A stretch of 32,000 bases of DNA from Xanthomonas campestris pv. campestris str. ATCC 33913 (GTDB taxonomy: Bacteria; Pseudomonadota; Gammaproteobacteria; Xanthomonadales; Xanthomonadaceae), in contig NC_003902.1 of NCBI RefSeq assembly GCF_000007145.1, forward strand, positions 3,086,497 through 3,118,496, read 5' to 3'. The notes below the pieces were generated by a model. That model was not told where the DNA came from, made no database searches, and saw only the letters and a list, made by a program, of their open reading frames with translations. Shown here one piece after another: positions 4,562-30,895 of the stretch (within the stretch, counting starts at the first letter, position 1; each line of letters begins with the position of its first letter). Both the position numbers and the translations under genes were made by a program.

Positions 4562-4659
4562 GTGGTCAGGATGGGGGTCTCGCGCCGGGGAGACAAGTCG
4601 CGCGGCTGAACGTGGCACGCGGCTATCATCGCCAGCCCGCTGCCAGCCACCGCGCACGC

Positions 4660-5415
4660 ATGAAGCTCACTGCCCACGTTCTGGACGGACACACGCTGGA
4701 TATTCGCCCCGCACCGCACGAACGCGCCTGGATGGATGCCACCGACCAACGCTACGCCTACCGTTGCCTGCCGCTGGCCATCGCCAATGCGCATGGCTGG
4801 GAGCTGCTGTGCCAGGCCGGCTTCGAGGCGGTCTGGGATGGCGGCGATGGGCTGGGCGCGGTGGTCATCACCGCCGATGCCGGCAACGCCGCGCCGGCGA
4901 TCAGCCATTTTGGCTACGGCATGCTGACCTTCCACGTGCCCTGCCTGTTTCGGACCGACGCGGGCGTGGACCTGTTCGTCACCGGGCCGTTGAACTGTCC
5001 CAAGGACGGCATCGGTGCGCTGAGCGGCATCGTGGAAACCGACTGGAGCCCGTACACCTTCACCATGAACTGGCGTTTTACCCGGCCGGGGCGGGTGCGC
5101 TTCGAGGCGGGTGAGCCGTTTTGCCATCTGTTCCCGCTACAGCGGCAGTTGATCGAACAGGTGCAGCCGCAGTGGCAGCCGTTGTCCGAAACGCCGGCGC
5201 TGGCGCAGCAGCATGCCGACTGGACCGACAGCCGCAGCCGTTTCCTGGAAGCCTTGCCGGACGCGCAATCGGCGGCGGCGCGCGAGAAATGGCAGCGCGG
5301 CTACTTTCGTGGCGTGACTGCGCCTGCGCAGACGCCGGTGGCCGGGCACCGCACGCGGCTGCGCCTGCCGCTATTCACGCGTACCGGCGCGTCGCTTGAC
5401 CCAGCCGGCGAGTGA
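4660..5415 (+). CDS. Conserved hypothetical protein, DUF6065-like
   Basis: 251 aa from ATG 4660 (the track ORF starts at GTG 4612). High-GC3 coding signal. [18 protein letters not shown] and [14 protein letters not shown] resemble what I recall of DUF6065. No functional motif recognised. Confidence 0.65.
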
Positions 5416-5427
5416 TCGACTGACTGC

Positions 5428-8400
5428 CTAGCGCGGCGCCTTGTCCGGCGCCGGCCTGGCGGGCGCACGCTCGCGCGCATCGCGGTCCACCACGTCCACC
5501 TGCGGCTCTTTCCACGGCCCGGTGACGTGATAGGTCTTGGCGCCAATCGCGCCCAGCGGTTTGCCGAGCACCGCATTGGCGGCCGCGCCGACCGCCGCAC
5601 CCACCGGGCCACCGGCCACCGCGCCCACCACCGTGAGCAGATTGCCGGCCTTGGGGTTCACGTCCACGGTCTGGTCGAAGGTCTGCGCACGCAGGTCGGT
5701 CTGCCCGCGGATGGCGATGTCGGCAGCCGGGCCTTCGATCCGGATCGCATCGGTGCGCGCAAAGCCATCGCCAAAGCGCACTTCGCCAGCGAGCTTGTTG
5801 AACGCCAGGCCCTTGGAGAAGAAGTCGCGGAAGTCGAACATCAACCGGCGCGGCAACTGCGCCACGCTGAGCAGGCCAAGCACGCGGCCGGCGCCGGGGT
5901 CCACTTCCAGCAACTGGCCGTTGCGGGCGTCCACGGTGAGATTGCCCTCGAGCGAGCCGAGCGCAAACCCGGTCGGCGAGCCCTGCCAGCCGGCGTTGAG
6001 TTCCAGCTGGCCTTCGCCGCCGCGCAGCTGCCCGCCCAGGGTGAGGTTCTGCAGCAGATTGCCCAGGTTGCGGCTGTCCACGCGCGCAGACAGCCGCGTG
6101 CTGGCGGCCTCGCCCTTGCCGCGCCAGGCGCCGGTCAGGCCGATGTTCTGGTCGTCCGAGCGCAGTTGCAGCTGGTCCACCTGCATGCCGTCGGTGAGCC
6201 GGCTGCTGCGCAAGGTGGCCGCGCCCAGGGTCATCTTGCCCACGCGCAGGTCGTCGATATCCAGCGATAGCGGCGGGATCGACACCGGGTCGAACTCGGC
6301 CACCGCGCGCCGCGCCGGCTCCGGCAATGCGCCGGCGAGCGGGTCGCCGGGTTCGGGCGCGGCCGGTTCCGGCGCAGCGGCCACCGGCTGCCAGCGCACC
6401 GTGCTGAGCTTGCCCTGCACTGCGGCGCCATCGGCATTGGGCACGGTGAGCTGGCCGGCCAGCGACGGCCCATCCAATGTCACCGCCACCGCATCGCGAG
6501 TGGGGCGCAGGCGCAGGCGGGTCTGCGGAAAGACGCCGCCAATCATCAACAGTTTGTCGGCCTGCACATCCACCTGCAGCAGCGGCAGCTTTTCGCTTGG
6601 CTGCGCCGGTTGGCCGGGTAGCGGCGGCGTGTCGGGCTCGGCACTGCCGCGTGCCAGGCTGATCCAGTCGATGGCATCCAGCGAGGCGGTGCGGCCATTG
6701 ACCACCAGGCCATTGGCCGGCGGCCGCTCGGTCACGGTGTCGGTGCCCATCACCACGCGCACGCCGGTCTGGGTGCCCTGGCTGCTGGCCTTGACCGCCA
6801 CCAGCTGGCCGAACGCCACGTCGATATCGCCATTGCCCACCGGCAACGCCACCTTGACCCGCGTGTCCAGCGGCTGCGTGGCCGGCTTGTCCAGCGGTGC
6901 GGGCAGATCCAGCGTGGTGCCGACCAACTGCGAGCGCAACGTGAGCTGTGCAGGCACATCGGGCTGCCCCGGACGCGCCAGCGGCACATCCACGCCCACC
7001 TGCCATGGCGCGCTGCCATGCACATACGGACGCAGCCATTCCATCTGCGGCGCGCGGTCGAACAGCTCCTTCGCATCCAGCGTGGCCCCGAAGCGCGCCT
7101 CGAACGCCTGCGCCGGGTCCTGCACAAAGCCGCCGGCACGCAACGCCAGCTCGCCGGTGCGGCCCTGATGCTGCACGCTCAGATGCTCGGCGCCGAAGCC
7201 GCTGTCGCGGTACTCGGCCTGCCCGCTGACCTGATCGAAGGCCAGGTTCCAGCGCGCGTCGGCCAGCTTGGCGCCCTGCAGCGCAACGGTGCCCTGCAGA
7301 TGCCCGCCCACGCCCTTGGTGCGTAACGGGCGCAGCAGATCGAAGGTGACCGCGGCCGGGCCGGAGGTGGTGAGGTTGCGCAAGGTGTCGCCATAGCGGC
7401 GCTCCAGCGGGCTGCTGCGCAACATGCCCAGCAACTGCGCAGTGTCAGCCTGAGTGGAGGCGCGCACATAGAGCTCGGAGGTGGCGAAATTGGGGATACC
7501 GGCCCCGAACTGCGCCACCGGCGTGCCGGCCAGCGCGCCGCTGCCTTGCAGCGAGAAACCATTGCCGATGAAGCGCAGGTCGGCCTGCACCTGGGTCATC
7601 GCCGGCCAGTCCGGCTGGAAGCGGATTTCGCCATCGCGAATCTGCCCGAAGGCTTCGAAGCGGCCATCGTTGTTGTCGAACGGCCAGTCGTCCAGGTCGC
7701 CGCTGACCAGGCCGGTGCCGCCGGTAATCACGCCCCCGGCTACCGCCATGTCGAGCCAGTCGATGGCGGCCTTGCTCATCTTCGAACGGATCCAGAACTT
7801 GCGCGCCACCGGCAGTGCGGCGTCATCCAGCTGCGCCGCCAGGGAGATGCGTGGCCGGGTGCCATCGTTCTGAAACCACATCCCGCCGCGCAGGTTGGCG
7901 CCGTAGTCCTTGGCCTGCACCCGCAGCGCCGGCGTGGCGACCTGCCAGCCGTCGCCGTCGCGCCAGCCAACGATGCTACCGGCCAGTTGCACCTCGTGCA
8001 CCACACCAAAGCCGGTGGGCCAGTCGAAGCGCAGCGTGGCGTCGGGCGCGGTTTGCAGCGCGATCGCCTGCGCATCGCCGTCGAAGTGCCCGCGCAGGCC
8101 GCTGATGCCCGGCGATTTCCCGACCGGCTGGAATGCCAGTTCCTCGACCTGCCCCTGCGCGCGCACCGCGCCGCCCTGCTCGCCCGCCAGCTGCAGCTTG
8201 CTCACGCGCAACTGCGGCCTGGACAACGCCAGCCAGCGGCGCAGGCCCGGCGACAGCTGGTCGCTCAGCGCAGCGGCGGCGATCAGCCCGGACACATCCA
8301 GCGCGTCGCCCACCACCGCATAACGGCGCCCGGCGGCGATGCTCAGGCCGTCGAGATGCTGCAGCGTGTTCGCGCTGCCCAGGCGCAGCTGTGGTGCATC

Positions 8401-26214: not shown

Positions 26215-27102
26215 TTAGCGTGCGCGTTGGCTGAAGGCCACGCTGCCCAGGATCAATACCGCGGCCAGCAGCATGGTCCAGGTCAGTGCCTCGCCCAATA
26301 GTGCCCAGGCCAGCAGCGCGCCGAACACCGGCACCAGATAGGTGACGGTGGAGGCGCGCGCGGGGCCGATGCGCTGGATCAGGCGGTAATACATCAGGAA
26401 GGCCAGCCCGGTGCACACCACGCCCAATGCACCGGCGCAGGCCCATGCGCTGGCCGGCACCGGCGCGCTCGGCCACTGCCACCACGCCACCGGCGCCAGC
26501 AGCAGCGCACTGCACCCCAATGTGGAGGCTGCCGACGCTGCCGGCGGCAGATCGCCCATGTGGCGTTTCACCAGGTTGTAGCCGATGCCATACAGCAGCG
26601 ACGCGGTGGCGCCGGCCAACGCGGCCGGCCCCACGCTGAGCCCGGCGGACTTGCCGGTGGCCAGTACCAGCACGCCGATAAAGCCGATCAACAGTGCCAC
26701 CGCGCGGCGCGTGCCGATGCGTTCGCCAAAGAACACGAACGCGATCAGGGCAGTGAACAACACCGTCATCGCGTTGCAGATGGCGCCCACCGCCGCGGGC
26801 GCATGCTGCGCGCCCCAGGCGAACAGCAGGAACGGCAATGCCGAGTTGAGCACGCCGATGGCGGCCAGCATCGGCCAACGGTGTAGCGGGAAGCGGCTGC
26901 GCGCCACCCACAAAAACGGCAACAACACTGTGGCACCCAGCGCGAGACGAATTTCCACCAATGCCGCGGCGCCGAAATGCGGCGCGGCCACACGCATGAA
27001 CAGGAACGAGCAGCCCCATACGATTCCCAGGAACACCAGTTCCAGCGGCGTGCGCCAATCGCGCACGCCAAGCGCCGGTTGCAGTGACGGCTGTGCACTC
27101 AT
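26215..27102 (-). CDS. EamA/DMT-superfamily transporter
   Basis: 295 aa from ATG 27102, with AGGAGG upstream. Ten hydrophobic segments in a two-repeat EamA layout (LELVFLGIVWGCSFLFMRVA...). Confidence 0.85.
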   Translation of the reverse strand: MSAQPSLQPALGVRDWRTPLELVFLGIVWGCSFLFMRVAAPHFGAAALVEIRLALGATVLLPFLWVARSRFPLHRWPMLAAIGVLNSALPFLLFAWGAQHAPAAVGAICNAMTVLFTALIAFVFFGERIGTRRAVALLIGFIGVLVLATGKSAGLSVGPAALAGATASLLYGIGYNLVKRHMGDLPPAASAASTLGCSALLLAPVAWWQWPSAPVPASAWACAGALGVVCTGLAFLMYYRLIQRIGPARASTVTYLVPVFGALLAWALLGEALTWTMLLAAVLILGSVAFSQRAR

Positions 27103-27272
27103 GCGCGCACCCTCCTGGCCTGCGATGCGGCGGTGCACACGCGTGAAAGAACATCGGGCAGGCGAGCGGTCATGGCGCGGGATCGAGATGGGGAGCGACA
27201 AAGCATCCGCGCACATCGCAGGCGCGACAAGCGCGTAGTATCGGGGCGAGCCACAAATCTCACTCATGCATC

Positions 27273-28265
27273 ATGCATCTGCGTCCTACCTTGCTGCCTG
27301 CACTCGGCGTCTTCGCCGCAGCCGCGCGCCACCAGAACTTCGCCCATGCGGCGGAAGAACTGCACCTCACCGCCAGCGCGGTGAGCCATCACGTGCGCAA
27401 GCTCGAGGCACTGCTCGGTGCAACCTTGTTTCAGCGGCTGCCGCGCGGCGTAATGCTCACCGCCGAAGGACGCCAGCTGGCCGATGCCGCCAGCGCGGCG
27501 CTGGCCGAGATCGCCGCGGTGGCGGGCAATCTGCACCCGCGCGAAGACGCCATCCCGCTGCGCGTGACCACGCTGCGCTCGCTGTCGTATTGCTGGTTGT
27601 TGCCGCGCCTGCCGCGGTTCTGCCGCCTGCACCCGCATATCCGCCTGGACCTGCAATCGGACCCGGCATTCTCGCGCTTCGAGGAAGGCGGGCCGGAAGT
27701 GGGCATCCGCTACGGCCAAGGCGCCTGGCCGGGGTTGACCTCGCACCACCTGATGGACGACGAACTGTTCCCGGTGGCCTCGCCCTCGTTGCCCGAAGTG
27801 GCCGCGTTGCAGACGCCGGCGCAGATTGCGCAACTGCCGCTGTTGTCGGACATGTCGCCGCAGGGCTGGCGCGACTGGTTCCGCGCGGCGCAGGTGCGCG
27901 GCACCACGCTGCCGCCGATGCACACCTTCAACGACAGCACCGATGCGATGCGCGCGGCCGTGTACGGACTGGGCGCGGTGCTGGCACGCAAGCACATTGC
28001 CCAACCGTATCTGCAGCGCTATGAGCTGGTACGCCTGCCCGGCCCGACCTTGAAGGCGCGCTACGCCTACTACATCGTGCACCCCAGCCATCGCGCGCCC
28101 AGCCCGGCGGCCACCGTGTTCATCGACTGGCTCAAACGCGAAGCACTGGACGAGCGCACGCCGATGCCGGCACTGCCCGCCGAACTGCTGGCATTGCCCA
28201 CCGGCGAGACCGCGCACGCGCCGGACAGACGGCGGCGATCGCGCCGTGCGCCGGCAACCGAGTGA
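27273..28265 (+). CDS. LysR-family transcriptional regulator (GcvA-like), divergent from the EamA transporter
   Basis: 330 aa. N-terminal wHTH LPALGVFAAAARHQNFAHAAEELHLTASAVSHHVRKLEALLG, followed by a LysR substrate-binding domain. Confidence 0.9.
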   Translation: MHLRPTLLPALGVFAAAARHQNFAHAAEELHLTASAVSHHVRKLEALLGATLFQRLPRGVMLTAEGRQLADAASAALAEIAAVAGNLHPREDAIPLRVTTLRSLSYCWLLPRLPRFCRLHPHIRLDLQSDPAFSRFEEGGPEVGIRYGQGAWPGLTSHHLMDDELFPVASPSLPEVAALQTPAQIAQLPLLSDMSPQGWRDWFRAAQVRGTTLPPMHTFNDSTDAMRAAVYGLGAVLARKHIAQPYLQRYELVRLPGPTLKARYAYYIVHPSHRAPSPAATVFIDWLKREALDERTPMPALPAELLALPTGETAHAPDRRRRSRRAPATE

Positions 28266-28476
28266 GCCTTCGCCGCAGGTAGTGCATCGCCATCTGCAAC
28301 TGCGCCGCGATGTCTCCCGTTGTGCAAGCGATCCAATCAGTCTGCCGCCCAGTGGCGCGTCAGGCGGCTGCGAAAGCAACAGTAGACGTGCACGCCAACA
28401 CGGCCTTGCACCGCACTTCCGCCTCTCCAAACAGGGACGGGCGACGCTCCCAGCTCGACCCGCCAGTAAAAATCGC

Positions 28477-28536
28477 TTGACACCTCGCACACCAAGCGAG
28501 TTAATTAGTTAATTAGCTAATTCGTTAATTAGCTAA
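28477..28536 (+). promoter_or_regulatory. Putative sigma70 promoter (perfect TTGACA) plus AT-rich tandem/palindromic operator of the arsR-family gene
   Basis: TTGACA lies at 28477-28482. Starting 17-19 bp downstream is TTAATTAG TTAATTAG CTAATTCG TTAATTAG CTAA (28501-28536), which includes the perfect palindrome AATTAGCTAATT (28511-28522). The ATG is at 28543. Confidence 0.5.
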
Positions 28537-28542
28537 GCCATC

Positions 28543-28857
28543 ATGTCGATCGATCGCATTTTCGAAGCCCTGGCATCGCGGCCACGTCGCGAGATCCTGG
28601 CCTATCTGTCGGCGCAGGAACTGACCGCTGGCCAGATCGGCGAGCGCTTTGCGATGAGTGCGCCCGCCATTTCGCGGCATCTGTCGGTGTTGTCGGCGGC
28701 TGGCCTGGTCAGCAGCGAACGGCGCGGCCAGTTCGTGGTGTACCGGCTGACCCCGCACAACATGGTCAACACGCTCAGCGGTTTCGCCTTCGAGGTCTGC
28801 CCCAAGGCCGGTCCGTTGCAACGCGAATCGCGCAAGCTGGCCAAGAAACCGCGCTGA
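28543..28857 (+). CDS. ArsR/SmtB-family winged-helix transcriptional regulator (no metal-site motifs)
   Basis: 104 aa. IFEALASRPRREILAYLSAQELTAGQIGERFAMSAPAISRHLSVLSAAGLV is the ArsR HTH_5/HTH_20 pattern. It has a single Cys and no CXC in helix 3. Confidence 0.88.
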   Translation: MSIDRIFEALASRPRREILAYLSAQELTAGQIGERFAMSAPAISRHLSVLSAAGLVSSERRGQFVVYRLTPHNMVNTLSGFAFEVCPKAGPLQRESRKLAKKPR

Positions 28858-28890
28858 ATTCCGCTCTTCGTCATGACTGCAAGGATTGCC

Positions 28891-30309
28891 ATGTACCCAC
28901 AACAGGTTGTTGCCGAAGCGAGCTTCCCCCGCGTGTTGCTGCCCTCCTGCAGCGGCGGGCGGCCGGTGGAAGTGATCCTGATCGCCCAGCTGGATCCAGG
29001 CGCCGGCGACGGTCTGATCGCGCAGGCCGGCCTGCGGCAACAGCAGCACCCGGCCCATCACGCCGCACTGGACGAGCCATCGGCGCAGCTGTCGGCACCG
29101 GACTTCCAGCTGGGCGACCCGGCCTCGCTGTTCTCGTTTTCGGTCGGCCCGCAGGGGCACCCGTTCCACTGCCATGCCGGCAACCGCGTGTTCACTGCGG
29201 TGACCGGCAGCGGCGGCGCGCAGTTGCGGTTCTCCACCGCTTCGGCGCAGCAGATTGCGCAGGATCCGCAGGCCTTCCTGCACGCGCTGCGCCATGTGGA
29301 CCTGCCCGGCGACAGCCTGTTCACGGTGCGCTTTGGCGGTGGCACCTGGCATCAGTTCGCGCCGGCGCGCGGCAGCGCGAGCCATTCGGCGTTGTTCGCC
29401 CTGTCCTGCCATCCCGATGAAGCCGCGGGCGCGCTGGACAGCGCACAGCAGGCGTTGGTCAGCAGTGGCCAGGCCACCATCGCCAGCCTCACCGAGCTGC
29501 TGCCGGAGGCGGTCACCGCATTGCTGGAATCGGACCAGTTCCGTGCCAGCGAGGTGCCGACCACCGCGCTGTCCTTCAACGTCAGACCACAGAGCTGGCA
29601 GCAGCGTGCGTGCGCCCGTGCGCGGCGCTGGGCCGGTCGCCTGCGCCAGGCCCTGGCGCTGACGCAACGTGGCGGCTTCGTGGCCACCAGTGCGCCGGCA
29701 CCGCGTGTGCGCGCACTGCCCACCGTGGCCGACGATGCGCTGCTGCACGCGCACTTCAGCGCGCCGATGCACTACCAGGACAGCCATCAGGTGCAACTGG
29801 ATACGCGCCAGTTGCGCAGCGACAGGCTGCCGGAGCTGATGTGCGACCTGCTGCAGGCCTTCATCGACCAGCCACCGAGCGGGGTGAGCGGATTGATGCG
29901 GCTGCGCAACCTGATGGTCAGACCGCTGGGGCTGCGCACCTCGCCGCTGGGTTGCCCGGTGTCATCGTTACTGGACCCGCATGCAGCGCAGCGGTTCGCC
30001 GGCCGTTTCCCGGTGCTGGCCCACCGCAGCGATGCCGATGGCCGGCAGGTGCAGGTGCTGCTGGGCGCGGACGACAAACACGTGCGTTTCCGCTCGGCGA
30101 TCAGCGTGCGCCGTACCGGTGAACACACGCTCGCGGTGACCATGGCTACGCAGGTGCATTGCCGCAACCTGTTCGGGCACCTGTACATGGCGGCGATCCA
30201 CCGCACCCATCGTCACTACATCATGCCGGCCATGCTCGGCAGCGCCGCACGGCAGGTGCTGGAGACGGCGCAGCACGCGCAGGCAAGCTGGCGCCCGCAG
30301 CCGGCATGA
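28891..30309 (+). CDS. Two-domain protein: N-terminal cupin-like domain fused to a C-terminal DUF2867 domain
   Basis: 472 aa from ATG 28891, with AAGGA at 28881-28885 (alternative ATG 28873). The N-terminal half has HCH-x3-R-x6-G and GGGTWHQF cupin-like motifs. The C-terminal half has LMRLRNLMVRPLGLRT, FPVL, LGADDKHVRFRSAISV and HRHYIMPAMLG, which match DUF2867 as I recall it. Confidence 0.7.
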   Translation: MYPQQVVAEASFPRVLLPSCSGGRPVEVILIAQLDPGAGDGLIAQAGLRQQQHPAHHAALDEPSAQLSAPDFQLGDPASLFSFSVGPQGHPFHCHAGNRVFTAVTGSGGAQLRFSTASAQQIAQDPQAFLHALRHVDLPGDSLFTVRFGGGTWHQFAPARGSASHSALFALSCHPDEAAGALDSAQQALVSSGQATIASLTELLPEAVTALLESDQFRASEVPTTALSFNVRPQSWQQRACARARRWAGRLRQALALTQRGGFVATSAPAPRVRALPTVADDALLHAHFSAPMHYQDSHQVQLDTRQLRSDRLPELMCDLLQAFIDQPPSGVSGLMRLRNLMVRPLGLRTSPLGCPVSSLLDPHAAQRFAGRFPVLAHRSDADGRQVQVLLGADDKHVRFRSAISVRRTGEHTLAVTMATQVHCRNLFGHLYMAAIHRTHRHYIMPAMLGSAARQVLETAQHAQASWRPQPA

Positions 30310-30325
30310 AACGCACGACGCGGAG

Positions 30326-30358
30326 GCGGCAGGCCATCACCTTGCCTTTGCCTGCCGC
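30326..30358 (+). other. Hairpin between the cupin-DUF2867 gene and the acidic-protein gene
   Basis: Perfect 9-bp stem GCGGCAGGC / GCCTGCCGC with a 15-nt loop. Weak T content downstream; a possible attenuator or terminator. Confidence 0.35.
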
Positions 30359-30398
30359 TACCTAGGCTTTGCGTTCCCACCACTCAGGACCAACGCCC

Positions 30399-30692
30399 AT
30401 GCCGACTCTTCGCATGCGTATCACCGGCACCGACGACGATGCCCGCGCCATTGGCAATCTGTTGCAGAGCATCGAAGGCATCGAGCACGTCGAGGAAGTC
30501 GACGATCTGATGCCGCACCTGGACGATGACGACTCCAGTTCGGCAGGTCTGTCCGACGACGAAGGTCCGGGCACGCACGAATTCGAAGTGGAAGCCGGCA
30601 ACGAATCCACCGCGCAAAAGGTGCGCGACGCCGTGCAGGAACTGGCGCTGCAGCTGGATGTCTTCATTGAATTCGAGGTCGACGAGGGCTAA
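30399..30692 (+). CDS. Small, highly acidic hypothetical protein with internal duplication
   Basis: 97 aa from ATG 30399 (AGGA 9 nt upstream; the track ORF begins at TTG 30369). Good GC3 bias. By hand count, 27 Asp/Glu versus 5 Arg/Lys. Confidence 0.6.
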   Translation: MPTLRMRITGTDDDARAIGNLLQSIEGIEHVEEVDDLMPHLDDDDSSSAGLSDDEGPGTHEFEVEAGNESTAQKVRDAVQELALQLDVFIEFEVDEG

Positions 30693-30895
30693 GAGCGGCT
30701 AACAAAACGTAGCGAGCAGCCGTCAGGTGGGTGCGGACGGCGCGGAGAAACCGGAGTGTACGTGGGTACATGCCGATTCCGAGCACCGGCCGCGCCCGCC
30801 TGGCGGCTGCGCAGTCGTTTTGATAGCTGCTCTAAGCCCGCATCGCACTGCCGCATCTGGGCAGGCCAGCGCTGTGCGTCGGCCTGCCTGACGCG

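What the first reader, a model, noticed from the sequence alone, without database searches (positions are those of the whole stretch)
28543..30309. ArsR-family regulator paired with an unusual cupin-like/DUF2867 fusion protein: candidate uncharacterised ligand-responsive module
The 104-aa ArsR-type repressor has one Cys, no helix-3 CXC and no helix-5 His/Asp site, so it is probably not a metal sensor. It is followed 33 nt later on the same strand by a 472-aa protein. The C-terminal ~190 aa of that protein look like DUF2867 (LRNLMVRPLGL, LGADDKHVRFRSAISV, HRHYIMPAMLG). As far as I recall, DUF2867 usually follows an NAD(P)-binding NmrA/SDR domain. Here the N-terminal ~230 aa carry cupin-like HCH...G and GxxH motifs instead, which could coordinate a metal. 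ArsR regulators are frequently paired with small ligand-binding (SRPBCC-type) proteins. A cupin/DUF2867 partner behind the striking operator above may be a small-molecule sensing or detoxifying unit with no assigned function. This is the best candidate for something undescribed in the window, but it is a 2-3 gene module, not a large system.
Basis: partly seen in the sequence, partly recalled or inferred. Interest (0 to 1): 0.65.

Follow-up and report, generated by a model that had tools for sequence, protein, structure and literature searches.

The report
ArsR repressor with cupin–DUF2867 partner operon
A small DNA-binding repressor and a two-domain protein of unknown function (a metal-binding barrel fused to a pocket-forming domain) form a self-regulated two-gene unit that is kept together in many soil and plant bacteria; what it does has not been studied.

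Summary
arsR (28543-28857) is followed 33 nt later by a 472-aa gene (28891-30309). Its C-terminal part matches Pfam DUF2867 (E 3.7e-18). Its N-terminal part matches no Pfam family, but a confident AlphaFold model finds cupins in the PDB. Modelled alone, DUF2867 gives weak but consistent SRPBCC/START-type matches.

The pair is a conserved cassette. In 69 of 80 genomes (Xanthomonadales and Burkholderiales) arsR lies directly upstream of the large gene, with gaps of -26 to 77 nt. No third gene travels with them.

All orthologous promoters that were aligned share TTGACA, followed at a fixed distance by an AT-rich dyad (consensus ATTAATTAACTAATTnGTTAATTA) in the position expected for the -10 element. 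This points to autorepression.

The fusion is common, with at least 1350 protein clusters, though none has an assigned function. The single ArsR cysteine is invariant, inside the motif FAFE-x-CP-xxx-PLKRE.

The closest solved relative of the ArsR is SrnR, which depends on a partner protein.

Most likely this is an inducible operon encoding a metal-dependent enzyme that acts on a hydrophobic small molecule. A sensor/co-regulator role for the large protein is not excluded.

Interest is moderate: a new variant of a known kind.

The parts
28477..28482 (+). -35 promoter hexamer TTGACA
   Evidence: TTGAC(A) occurs at the equivalent place in 64 of 70 orthologous arsR upstream regions, at a fixed distance from the AT-rich block. 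The strict sigma-70 scan found no full promoter, because the -10 region is taken up by the operator.
28499..28538 (.). Candidate ArsR operator: five 8-bp TTAATTAG/CTAATT units, including the perfect 12-bp palindrome AATTAGCTAATT (28511-28522). It covers the expected -10 region and the leader, ending 4 nt before the arsR ATG.
   Evidence: Four register-shifted 16-nt copies at 8-nt spacing, plus palindromes. The motif gives 8 overlapping hits in the window against 0.1 expected, and occurs nowhere else in the 32 kb. GC falls from about 0.65-0.70 to 0.44 here. The cross-genus consensus is ATTAATTAACTAATTnGTTAATTAnTTAA.
28543..28857 (+). arsR: 104-aa ArsR/SmtB winged-helix repressor of the SrnR/SdpR-like branch
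   Evidence: Pfam HTH_5 and NCBIfam HTH_metalloreg both score above cut-off; the SdpR model scores 80.2 bits, below its cut-off of 100. The closest solved structure is SrnR, 7p6f, E 3.4e-15. Orthologues are 53-98% identical in 69 loci.
28798..28800 (+). Codon of Cys86, the only Cys in the ArsR, within the conserved C-terminal motif FAFE-x-C-P-xxx-P-L-K/Q-R-E
   Evidence: C and P are conserved in at least 90% of the 70 aligned ArsR sequences from Xanthomonadales and Burkholderiales. The alignment to SrnR also runs through a VCP motif.
28858..28890 (+). 33-nt intergenic spacer with the Shine-Dalgarno sequence AAGGA (28881-28885); no terminator
   Evidence: Read from the sequence. The scan found no terminator-like site here. 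Orthologous gaps have a median of 27 nt and range from -26 to 77 nt; 13 of 69 are 4-nt overlaps.
28891..30309 (+). 472-aa two-domain cytoplasmic protein: divergent cupin, helical linker, DUF2867
   Evidence: Full-length homologues of about 465-485 aa. AF2 model with pLDDT 88.7. dN/dS about 0.2.
29071..29430 (+). Cupin beta-barrel core (residues 61-180). Motif 1 is H93-x-H95-x3-R99-x6-G106, with Arg where cupins usually have Glu. Motif 2 is G151-x2-H154. H174 and E177 follow.
   Evidence: Foldseek matches to cupins. H93, H95, R99, H154, H174 and E177 are invariant both in 34 fused homologues and in distant ~220-aa stand-alone homologues. This is the most conserved segment, with 68% mean identity. 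No Pfam match.
29770..30216 (+). DUF2867 domain (residues 294-442), a helix-grip / SRPBCC-like fold. Invariant residues include C355-P356 (in LGCPVSSLL), D395, H397, R401, N426 and H440.
   Evidence: Pfam PF11066, E 3.7e-18. The domain modelled alone has pLDDT 89.2. Foldseek matches to norcoclaurine synthase, START protein MSMEG_0129, ZhuI and PYR/PYL have E of about 1e-3 to 1e-2 and target-normalised TM up to 0.49.
30350..30367 (+). Weak terminator-like hairpin 41 nt after the stop codon; possible end of the operon
   Evidence: Consensus scan only. Three such sites were found in the region against 1.7 expected, so this is not significant on its own.

Best explanation
The finding is a self-contained, autorepressed two-gene operon.

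Regulation. A sigma-70-type promoter (TTGACA at 28477-28482) runs into an AT-rich dyad array (28499-28538) that covers the expected -10 element and the short leader. The ArsR dimer binds this array and shuts off both its own gene and the co-transcribed 472-aa gene.

The regulator. The ArsR belongs to the SrnR/SdpR-like branch and has neither of the classical metal sites. Its only plausible input is its conserved C-terminal tail with the invariant Cys86-Pro. I propose that repression is lifted when this cysteine is modified by an oxidant or electrophile, or when a small organic ligand binds.

The product. The induced protein is a cytoplasmic enzyme. Its N-terminal divergent cupin holds a metal on His93, His95 and His154, with His174, Glu177 and Arg99 nearby. 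Its C-terminal helix-grip DUF2867 domain supplies a hydrophobic pocket. In YbjT-type proteins the same DUF2867 domain is fused to an NAD(P)-dependent reductase domain instead. This suggests that DUF2867 binds the substrate and the N-terminal partner does the redox chemistry. The likely substrate class is a hydrophobic or aromatic compound such as a quinone or plant phenolic, which would be oxidised, cleaved or isomerised.

Shown: gene order, conservation of the pair, conservation and position of the operator, the two folds, the invariant residues.

Inferred: co-transcription, repression, metal binding, the inducing signal, catalysis and the substrate class.
For: Operon:
- The genes are on the same strand, 33 nt apart, with a Shine-Dalgarno sequence and no terminator between them.
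- arsR is directly upstream in 69 of 80 genomes across two orders. The median gap is 27 nt, and 13 loci have 4-nt overlaps.
- The flanking genes differ between genera. In some Xanthomonas species the pair has been replaced as a unit: 75-79% and 54% identity for the two genes against 91-96% for the flanks.
- No third gene is conserved next to the pair.

Operator:
- The motif is unique in the window, with 8 hits against 0.1 expected.
- TTGAC plus the AT-rich dyad occurs at a fixed spacing in 64 of 70 orthologous promoters.
- Upstream of the large gene in the loci that lack arsR, the TTAA-type tetramers are scarce: 0-2, against a mean of 6.0.

Folds:
- Cupin.
- SRPBCC-like DUF2867.
- YbjT is NAD(P)-binding plus DUF2867 and has nearly the same length, 476 aa.

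Candidate metal site: H93, H95, H154, H174, E177 and R99 are invariant even in stand-alone homologues only 29-44% identical to each other.

The large protein works without this ArsR, which favours an enzyme:
- 11 of 80 bacterial loci lack arsR.
- A full-length homologue exists in the amoeba Acrasis kona.
- Stand-alone cupin homologues sit in unrelated gene contexts.

Xenobiotic context: in two loci the gene follows an old-yellow-enzyme flavin reductase, and in one of these it lies behind an ArsR-MFS-OYE gene string.

Cys86-Pro is conserved in at least 90% of 70 ArsR sequences.
Against: - No experiment, expression data or fitness data were found for either gene.
- The model coordinates could not be inspected, so the geometry of the proposed metal site is inferred only from motif positions and strand assignment.
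- The canonical metal-binding Glu of cupin motif 1 is an invariant Arg. No cupin HMM matches, so the domain could be non-catalytic.
- The SRPBCC assignment rests on weak matches (E about 1e-3, TM at most 0.49).
- The OYE association occurs in only 2 loci.
- The conserved basic tail of the ArsR could instead contact the AT-rich DNA or a partner protein, rather than sense a signal.
- The closest characterised relatives of this ArsR, SrnR and by profile SdpR, both work through a partner protein. This favours the rival explanation.
Confidence: 0.5

Rival explanations
1. Partner-dependent regulator. The 472-aa protein is the sensor, not the output. It binds a metal at the His-rich cupin site, or a small molecule in the DUF2867 pocket, and then docks onto the conserved C-terminal tail of the ArsR. 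This either makes it a co-repressor, as SrnQ is for SrnR, or sequesters the ArsR, as SdpI does with SdpR. The pair would then control itself and probably further genes elsewhere in the genome.
For: - The closest solved homologue of the ArsR is SrnR (E 3.4e-15), and the alignment includes the C-terminal VCP motif.
- Two reviews state that SrnR needs the Ni-binding partner SrnQ, with which it forms a complex that represses sodF (PMC7055735 and PMC11672702).
- The NCBIfam SdpR-family model scores as high as the general ArsR model.
- The ArsR lacks its own canonical sensing sites, read from the sequence.
- The cassette contains only the regulator and this one protein.
- ArsR is under much stronger constraint than its partner, with dN/dS 0.01-0.05 against about 0.2.
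Against: - The large protein occurs without this ArsR in 11 of 80 bacterial loci and in a eukaryote.
- Its cupin domain also occurs alone in unrelated contexts.
- Per the review, SrnQ is unlike any known protein, and SdpI is a membrane protein. Neither partner is homologous to this one.
- The SdpR model score is below its cut-off.
- No complex prediction could be run.
Confidence: 0.25
2. Direct metal or metalloid sensor. The two Cys86 thiolates of the ArsR dimer, perhaps with tail residues, bind a soft metal such as Cu(I), Hg(II), Cd(II) or As(III). The cupin protein would then be a cytoplasmic metal-binding or buffering protein.
For: - The family-level match is to metalloregulator ArsR/SmtB.
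- A Cys in the C-terminal tail is a metal ligand in CmtR (review PMC11672702).
- The Foldseek matches include the metal-binding cupins MncA and CucA.
- The large protein has many invariant His residues and two invariant Cys (C173 and C355).
Against: - There is only one Cys per ArsR monomer. There is no helix-3 CXC, no helix-4 Cys pair and no helix-5 His/Asp/Glu site.
- Scores against specific sensor models are far below cut-off: CmtR 30 bits against 150, BigR 32 against 155.
- No metal transporter or efflux gene travels with the pair.
- MncA and CucA are exported proteins, whereas no N-terminal signal sequence is evident in this protein (judged by eye; no predictor was run).
Confidence: 0.1
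3. Chance adjacency of two unrelated genes, with the AT-rich stretch being a generic promoter or nucleoid-protein site.
For: The AT-rich sequence would also attract H-NS-like proteins in a genome of about 65-70% GC.
Against: - The pair is adjacent in 69 of 80 genomes, has been relocated and replaced as a unit, and in 13 loci the two reading frames overlap by 4 nt.
- The AT-rich element keeps a specific dyad sequence and a fixed spacing. Nothing comparable lies upstream of the large gene where arsR is missing.
Confidence: 0.03

Closest known systems
SrnR/SrnQ of Streptomyces griseus (ArsR-family DNA binder plus a co-encoded Ni-binding partner)
   Same: SrnR is the closest solved structure to this ArsR (7p6f, E 3.4e-15 over residues 6-92, including the C-terminal VCP motif). 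Both are ArsR proteins without classical metal sites, encoded next to a partner gene. SrnR needs SrnQ in order to respond.
   Different: SrnQ is described as unlike any known protein, whereas the partner here is a 472-aa cupin-DUF2867 protein. The SrnRQ target is sodF and its signal is nickel. Here the only identified target is the operon itself, and the signal is unknown.
SdpR/SdpI of Bacillus subtilis (autorepressor sequestered by the co-encoded immunity protein; own knowledge) and NCBIfam NF033789
   Same: The SdpR-family profile scores as high as the generic ArsR profile (80.2 bits). In both cases a two-gene operon begins with the autorepressor.
   Different: The score is below the family cut-off of 100, so this ArsR is not a member. 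SdpI is an integral membrane protein, whereas the partner here is soluble and has enzyme-like folds.
YbjT-type proteins (NAD(P)-binding NmrA/SDR domain plus DUF2867)
   Same: Same C-terminal Pfam domain, and almost the same length and layout (476 aa).
   Different: The N-terminal Rossmann domain is replaced by a cupin. A profile comparison of the two C-terminal domains gave no significant alignment. The link therefore rests only on the Pfam model.
Metal-dependent cupins, such as Ni-quercetinase QueD (5flh, 5flj), MncA/CucA, oxalate decarboxylase and cysteine dioxygenase
   Same: Beta-barrel fold (Foldseek probability 0.99-1.0). The HxH of motif 1 and the His of motif 2 are at the canonical spacing.
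   Different: 9-13% sequence identity and target-normalised TM of only about 0.4-0.5. No cupin HMM matches. The motif 1 Glu is an invariant Arg. There is an extra invariant His174/Glu177 pair. The domain is fused to DUF2867.
SRPBCC/START/Bet v 1 ligand-binding domains (norcoclaurine synthase, ZhuI cyclase, PYR/PYL receptors, MSMEG_0129)
   Same: The DUF2867 model has a curved sheet wrapped around a long C-terminal helix, and nearly all of its PDB matches come from this superfamily.
   Different: The matches are weak (E about 1e-3 to 1e-2, TM 0.3-0.49). An extra helical insert (residues 313-346 of the 472-aa protein) is present. Whether there is a pocket was not examined.
One-cysteine electrophile- or quinone-sensing repressors that control detoxifying oxidoreductases (QsrR, YodB; own knowledge), and the PyeR-PyeM-XenB operon of Pseudomonas (own knowledge)
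   Same: Proposed logic only: a small repressor with a single conserved Cys that controls a redox enzyme. One homologue of the large gene lies behind an ArsR-MFS-OYE gene string.
   Different: QsrR and YodB belong to a different regulator family, and their Cys is N-terminal. The PyeR-like protein in L021 is only 31% identical and lacks the CP motif. No thiol chemistry was tested.

Membership tests
ArsR/SmtB family | Winged helix-turn-helix matching the family profiles above their curated cut-offs | tested here: met
   Pfam HTH_5 45.4 bits (cut-off 22) and HTH_20 42.7 (cut-off 27). NCBIfam NF033788 80.1 bits (cut-off 55).
ArsR/SmtB family, canonical metal or metalloid sensors | A helix-3 CXC site, a helix-5 His/Asp/Glu site or another described thiolate site | tested here: not met
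   There is one Cys (C86, in the C-terminal tail), no CXC and no helix-5 cluster, read from the sequence. Specific sensor models score far below cut-off: CmtR 30 against 150, BigR 32 against 155, ArsR PRK10141 40 against 97.
SdpR family autorepressors (NF033789) | Profile score at or above the curated cut-off of 100 bits | tested here: not met
   80.2 bits.
SdpR/SrnR-type partner-dependent regulation | Physical complex between the ArsR protein and the co-encoded partner | not testable with these tools
   No multimer prediction or experiment was available. Only the homology to SrnR and the conserved gene pairing are known.
DUF2867 (PF11066) | Pfam profile match above the gathering score | tested here: met
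   66.6 bits against 27, E 3.7e-18, profile positions 6-137 of 142.
Cupin superfamily | Match to a cupin sequence profile | tested here: not met
   No Pfam or NCBIfam family matches the N-terminal ~290 aa at E <= 1. A profile search of the PDB at E <= 10 found nothing.
Cupin superfamily | Double-stranded beta-helix (cupin) fold | tested here: met
   AF2 model with pLDDT 88.7. Foldseek probability 0.99-1.0 to many cupins, E down to 4e-6.
Cupin superfamily | Motif 1, G-x5-H-x-H-x3,4-E-x6-G, and motif 2, G-x5-P-x-G-x2-H-x3-N, which supply the metal ligands | tested here: inconclusive
   H93-x-H95-x3-R99-x6-G106 and G151-x2-H154 are invariant, but the Glu is replaced by Arg and the rest of motif 2 is degenerate. 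The site geometry could not be inspected.
SRPBCC/START/Bet v 1 superfamily | Helix-grip fold with a hydrophobic ligand cavity | tested here: inconclusive
   The PDB matches of the domain model are mostly from this superfamily (the single top hit is Mog1), with E about 1e-3 to 1e-2 and TM at most 0.49. The cavity was not examined.
Known anti-phage defence systems (PADLOC) | Match of the large protein to a defence-system profile | tested here: not met
   No match for the 472-aa protein. The ArsR matches only generic wHTH parts of Csa3/CARF models.

The most novel reading that the evidence does not exclude
The cupin-DUF2867 protein is a cytoplasmic receptor that senses a metal or a hydrophobic metabolite. 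It controls transcription by binding the invariant Cys-Pro tail of an otherwise signal-blind ArsR repressor. That would make it a soluble, two-domain counterpart of SrnQ or SdpI, and the founding member of a widespread class of 'ArsR plus SRPBCC-like co-sensor' switches. It could also explain why ArsR genes so often sit next to SRPBCC-type genes.
Probability: 0.2. Interest if true: 0.65.

Novelty: new variant of a known kind. Interest (0 to 1): 0.42.

Why it matters
- DUF2867 and the many ArsR regulators that lack metal sites are large groups with no known function.
- This cassette is a compact test case: one promoter, one conserved operator, one regulator with a single invariant cysteine, and one two-domain protein whose candidate catalytic residues can already be named.
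- It occurs in major plant pathogens and plant-associated bacteria, including Xanthomonas, Stenotrophomonas, Dyella, Luteibacter and Lysobacter-related genera. An inducible enzyme acting on plant phenolics or quinones would therefore bear on host colonisation.
- The N-terminal domain is a cupin family absent from Pfam. A profile for it would annotate more than a thousand proteins.
- If the partner-sensor reading is right instead, it would extend the SrnR/SrnQ principle well beyond actinobacteria.

Tried and rejected
- Sequence-level annotation of the N-terminal domain led nowhere. Pfam and NCBIfam at E <= 1, and a profile search of the PDB at E <= 10, gave nothing.
- Profile-profile comparison of the C-terminal domain with E. 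coli YbjT gave no significant alignment. I could not tell which invariant residues are general to DUF2867.
- A search for a third conserved gene around the pair, by all-against-all clustering of ORFs within 3.5 kb in 80 loci, found only lineage-specific synteny. The neighbouring LysR-EamA pair, the cyclophilin, the small acidic protein and DUF4349 are not part of the module.
- The context of stand-alone cupin homologues was uninformative: SET-domain, FtsW, PAP2 and SecDF genes, with no ArsR and no DUF2867. The profile search for more of them returned only 6 proteins.
- No Rfam family lies in or upstream of the operon. No defence-system match was found.
- The strict sigma-70 scan found no promoter. 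I rely on the phylogenetic footprint instead.
- Literature: DUF2867 appears in two irrelevant papers. Searches for ArsR with SRPBCC, and for SdpR with Xanthomonas, gave nothing useful. Four further paper queries, including the SrnR structure paper and PyeR, timed out.
- Rejected: a classical metal-sensing ArsR, because it has no described site; chance adjacency; and a spurious ORF, because of its conservation and dN/dS. The 423-aa antisense ORF at 28525-29796 is the usual artefact of a high-GC genome.
Full report
**1. What is in the sequence**

The two ORFs exist as described. arsR runs from 28543 to 28857 on the + strand and encodes 104 aa. A large ORF ends at 30309. It has two possible ATG starts, 28873 and 28891.

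The second start lies 33 nt after the arsR stop codon and is preceded by AAGGA (28881-28885). Homologues are conserved from about residue 10 (FPxVxLP...), which supports this start.

The antisense 423-aa ORF at 28525-29796 is the usual artefact of a genome with about 65-70% GC.

**2. Domain calls**

The ArsR passes Pfam HTH_5 and NCBIfam HTH_metalloreg. The SdpR-family model scores equally well (80.2 bits) but stays below its cut-off of 100. All models of specific metal or sulfur sensors score far below their cut-offs.

In the large protein, only DUF2867 is recognised: PF11066, E 3.7e-18, residues 294-442. No cupin or any other family matches the first ~290 residues, even at E <= 1. A profile search of all PDB sequences also found nothing.

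An AlphaFold2 model built from 34 homologues is confident, with mean pLDDT 88.7. Foldseek against the PDB returns cupins almost exclusively: Ni-quercetinase, MncA, CucA, oxalate decarboxylase, quercetin dioxygenases, a sugar isomerase and cysteine dioxygenase. Probabilities are mostly 0.9-1.0 (0.99-1.0 for the top matches) and E-values run from 4e-6 to 2e-4.

The C-terminal domain modelled alone (pLDDT 89.2) gives weak matches. Apart from the top hit, Mog1, they are consistently to the SRPBCC/START/Bet v 1 superfamily: norcoclaurine synthase, MSMEG_0129, ZhuI and PYR/PYL. E-values are about 1e-3 to 1e-2 and TM is at most 0.49.

**3. Conserved residues**

Among 34 full-length homologues 48-71% identical to the window protein, these residues are invariant:
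- H90, H93, H95, R99, G106
- W153, H154
- C173, H174, E177
- C355-P356 (within LGCPVSSLL)
- D395, H397, R401, N426, H440

H93-x-H95-x3-R99-x6-G106 has the spacing of cupin motif 1, with Arg where the metal-binding Glu normally sits. G151-x2-H154 fits motif 2.

A search of 1.84 billion representative proteins with the N-terminal domain found only 107 clusters. Most are the fused ~470-aa form, but some are stand-alone proteins of ~220 aa at 33-39% identity. These match no Pfam family.

Across both forms H93, H95, R99, H154, H174 and E177 remain invariant, whereas H90 and C173 do not. The cupin core is the best-conserved segment of the protein (68% mean identity). The linker at residues 233-292 is the least conserved domain-connecting segment (37%); only the extreme C-terminal tail is lower (26%).

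**4. The pair is a conserved cassette**

A scan of one genome per species returned at least 330 relatives of the large protein, of which the best 80 loci were kept.

- In 69 of the 80 loci an arsR orthologue (53-98% identical) lies directly upstream on the same strand. The genera include Xanthomonas, Stenotrophomonas, Pseudoxanthomonas, Luteimonas, Lysobacter, Dyella, Luteibacter, Rhodanobacter and Tahibacter, and among the Burkholderiales Polaromonas, Ideonella and Collimonas.
- The intergenic gap has a median of 27 nt and ranges from -26 to 77 nt. It is a 4-nt overlap in 13 loci.
- The flanking genes differ. In Xanthomonas the pair sits between a LysR-EamA pair and a small acidic protein. 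In Pseudoxanthomonas it sits between the cyclophilin gene and EamA.
- Clustering of all neighbouring ORFs found no third conserved gene.
- In X. pisi, X. prunicola and Xanthomonas sp. Leaf148 the pair is only 75-79% and 54% identical to the window, while the flanking genes are 91-96% identical. The cassette has therefore been exchanged as a unit.
- Against close relatives the ArsR is almost frozen (dN/dS 0.01-0.05). The large protein evolves faster (about 0.2) but is clearly under purifying selection.

**5. The regulatory region**

The AT-rich element at 28499-28538 consists of five 8-bp TTAATTAG/CTAATT units and includes the perfect palindrome AATTAGCTAATT. The motif is unique in the 32-kb window, with 8 overlapping hits against 0.1 expected. 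Local GC falls to 0.44.

Of 70 orthologous arsR upstream regions, 64 carry TTGAC(A). In the aligned promoters it is followed, at a fixed distance of about 17-20 nt, by the same kind of AT-rich dyad. The consensus is ATTAATTAACTAATTnGTTAATTAnTTAA, with TTAAC and GTTAA half-sites, and it ends a few bases before the start codon.

The element therefore occupies the expected -10 region and the leader, which is the classical position for a repressor. Upstream of the large gene in the 11 loci without arsR there are 0-2 of the characteristic tetramers, against a mean of 6.0 in the arsR loci.

No terminator separates the two genes, and no Rfam family is present there.

**6. The ArsR itself**

The single Cys is not incidental, however. 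In 70 sequences the C-terminal motif FAFE-x-C-P-xxx-P-L-K/Q-R-E is conserved, with Cys and Pro in at least 90% of them, and it is followed by a basic tail.

The closest solved structure is SrnR of Streptomyces griseus (E 3.4e-15), and the alignment extends through a VCP motif. Two reviews describe SrnR as a regulator that depends on a Ni-binding partner protein, SrnQ, with which it forms the complex that represses sodF.

All database names for orthologues are generic. The ArsR is 99% identical to a Xanthomonas campestris protein, so the window comes from X. campestris or a close relative.

**7. Is the large protein autonomous?**

Several observations say yes.

- Eleven of the 80 loci have the large gene without this ArsR, in assorted contexts.
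- In two of these loci it follows an old-yellow-enzyme flavin oxidoreductase. In one of the two the gene order is ArsR-like (31% identical, no CP motif), MFS transporter, OYE, then the large gene.
- A full-length fused homologue is encoded on an 86-kb contig of the amoeba Acrasis kona, where it is named 'developmentally-regulated protein'.
- Stand-alone cupin homologues lie in unrelated contexts.

**8. Interpretation**

Shown: a two-gene cassette with a conserved promoter and operator; an ArsR of the SrnR/SdpR-like branch with an invariant Cys-Pro tail; and a soluble protein that combines a divergent His-rich cupin with a helix-grip DUF2867 domain.

Inferred: the ArsR represses the operon from the dyad array; a signal relieves repression; and the large protein is a metal-dependent enzyme for a hydrophobic substrate.

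The enzyme reading (confidence about 0.5) is favoured for four reasons:
- The large protein occurs without the ArsR.
- The candidate metal ligands are the most strongly conserved residues.
- In YbjT-type proteins the DUF2867 domain is fused to a different redox domain.
- Two loci place the gene in an OYE/xenobiotic context.

The partner-sensor reading (about 0.25) is kept alive by the homology to SrnR, the similarity to the SdpR profile, the lack of any sensing site in the ArsR other than its tail, and the fact that the cassette contains nothing else.

A direct metal-sensing role (about 0.1) has little support. Chance adjacency is excluded.

**9. Novelty and score**

The fusion is common and the individual folds are known. 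Neither gene has any functional assignment, the cupin domain belongs to no curated family, and the conserved operator and the Cys-Pro tail have apparently not been described.

This is a new variant of a known kind: an ArsR-controlled small operon, and one form of the ArsR plus SRPBCC-type pairing. A specialist would find it a good, well-defined target rather than a surprise. Interest is 0.42.

Noticed in passing
window 30697-30771 (- strand): Strong match to the Xanthomonas small RNA sX9 (Rfam RF02228, 91 bits against a gathering score of 44), between the small acidic protein gene and the DUF4349 gene. A weak second match lies on the + strand at 30756-30828.
   Followed up: no
L009, L010, L011 (X. 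pisi, X. prunicola, Xanthomonas sp. Leaf148), positions about 4620-6370: The arsR and large-gene pair is only 75-79% and 54% identical to the window, while the flanking cyclophilin, LysR and acidic-protein genes are 91-96% identical. The cassette was replaced as a unit within the genus.
   Followed up: partly
L052 (Ideonella azotifigens), 4579-6380 and 10810 to the end of the locus: Two copies of the arsR and large-gene pair lie about 6 kb apart in one genome.
   Followed up: no
L021 1998-6425 and L012 3704-6374: Here the large gene has no cognate arsR and follows an old-yellow-enzyme flavin oxidoreductase. L021 has the gene string ArsR-like, MFS transporter, OYE, large gene. From my own knowledge this resembles the Pseudomonas pyeR-pyeM-xenB operon.
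   Followed up: partly
P0146 (Acrasis kona, KAL0480668.1): A full-length cupin-DUF2867 homologue (539 aa, 48% identical in the N-terminal domain) is annotated in a heterolobosean amoeba as 'developmentally-regulated protein', on an 86-kb contig. This is either horizontal transfer into a eukaryote or contamination.
   Followed up: partly
P0007, P0008, P0009, P0012 (RefSeq Xanthomonas orthologues); window 28891-28974: Several deposited orthologues are annotated as 442-444 aa and start at an internal Met (MLIAQL...). This drops about 28 N-terminal residues that are conserved across genera, so the start codons are probably mis-called.
   Followed up: partly
window 28473-28499: An 11-pair inverted repeat (TCGCTTG...CAAGCGA) encloses the -35 hexamer and the spacer of the arsR promoter. 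The scan scored it as a terminator-like site on the - strand. It may be the terminator of the upstream LysR gene or a second regulatory element.
   Followed up: no
window 30369-30692 (+): A small, very acidic 107-aa protein with no Pfam family is conserved at 74-93% identity downstream of the cassette in Xanthomonas, Stenotrophomonas-like genomes and one Luteimonas, but not elsewhere. It is not part of the module.
   Followed up: no
window 26215-28265: A divergent LysR regulator and EamA transporter pair lies immediately upstream. It keeps together and moves independently of the arsR cassette in Pseudoxanthomonas.
   Followed up: no
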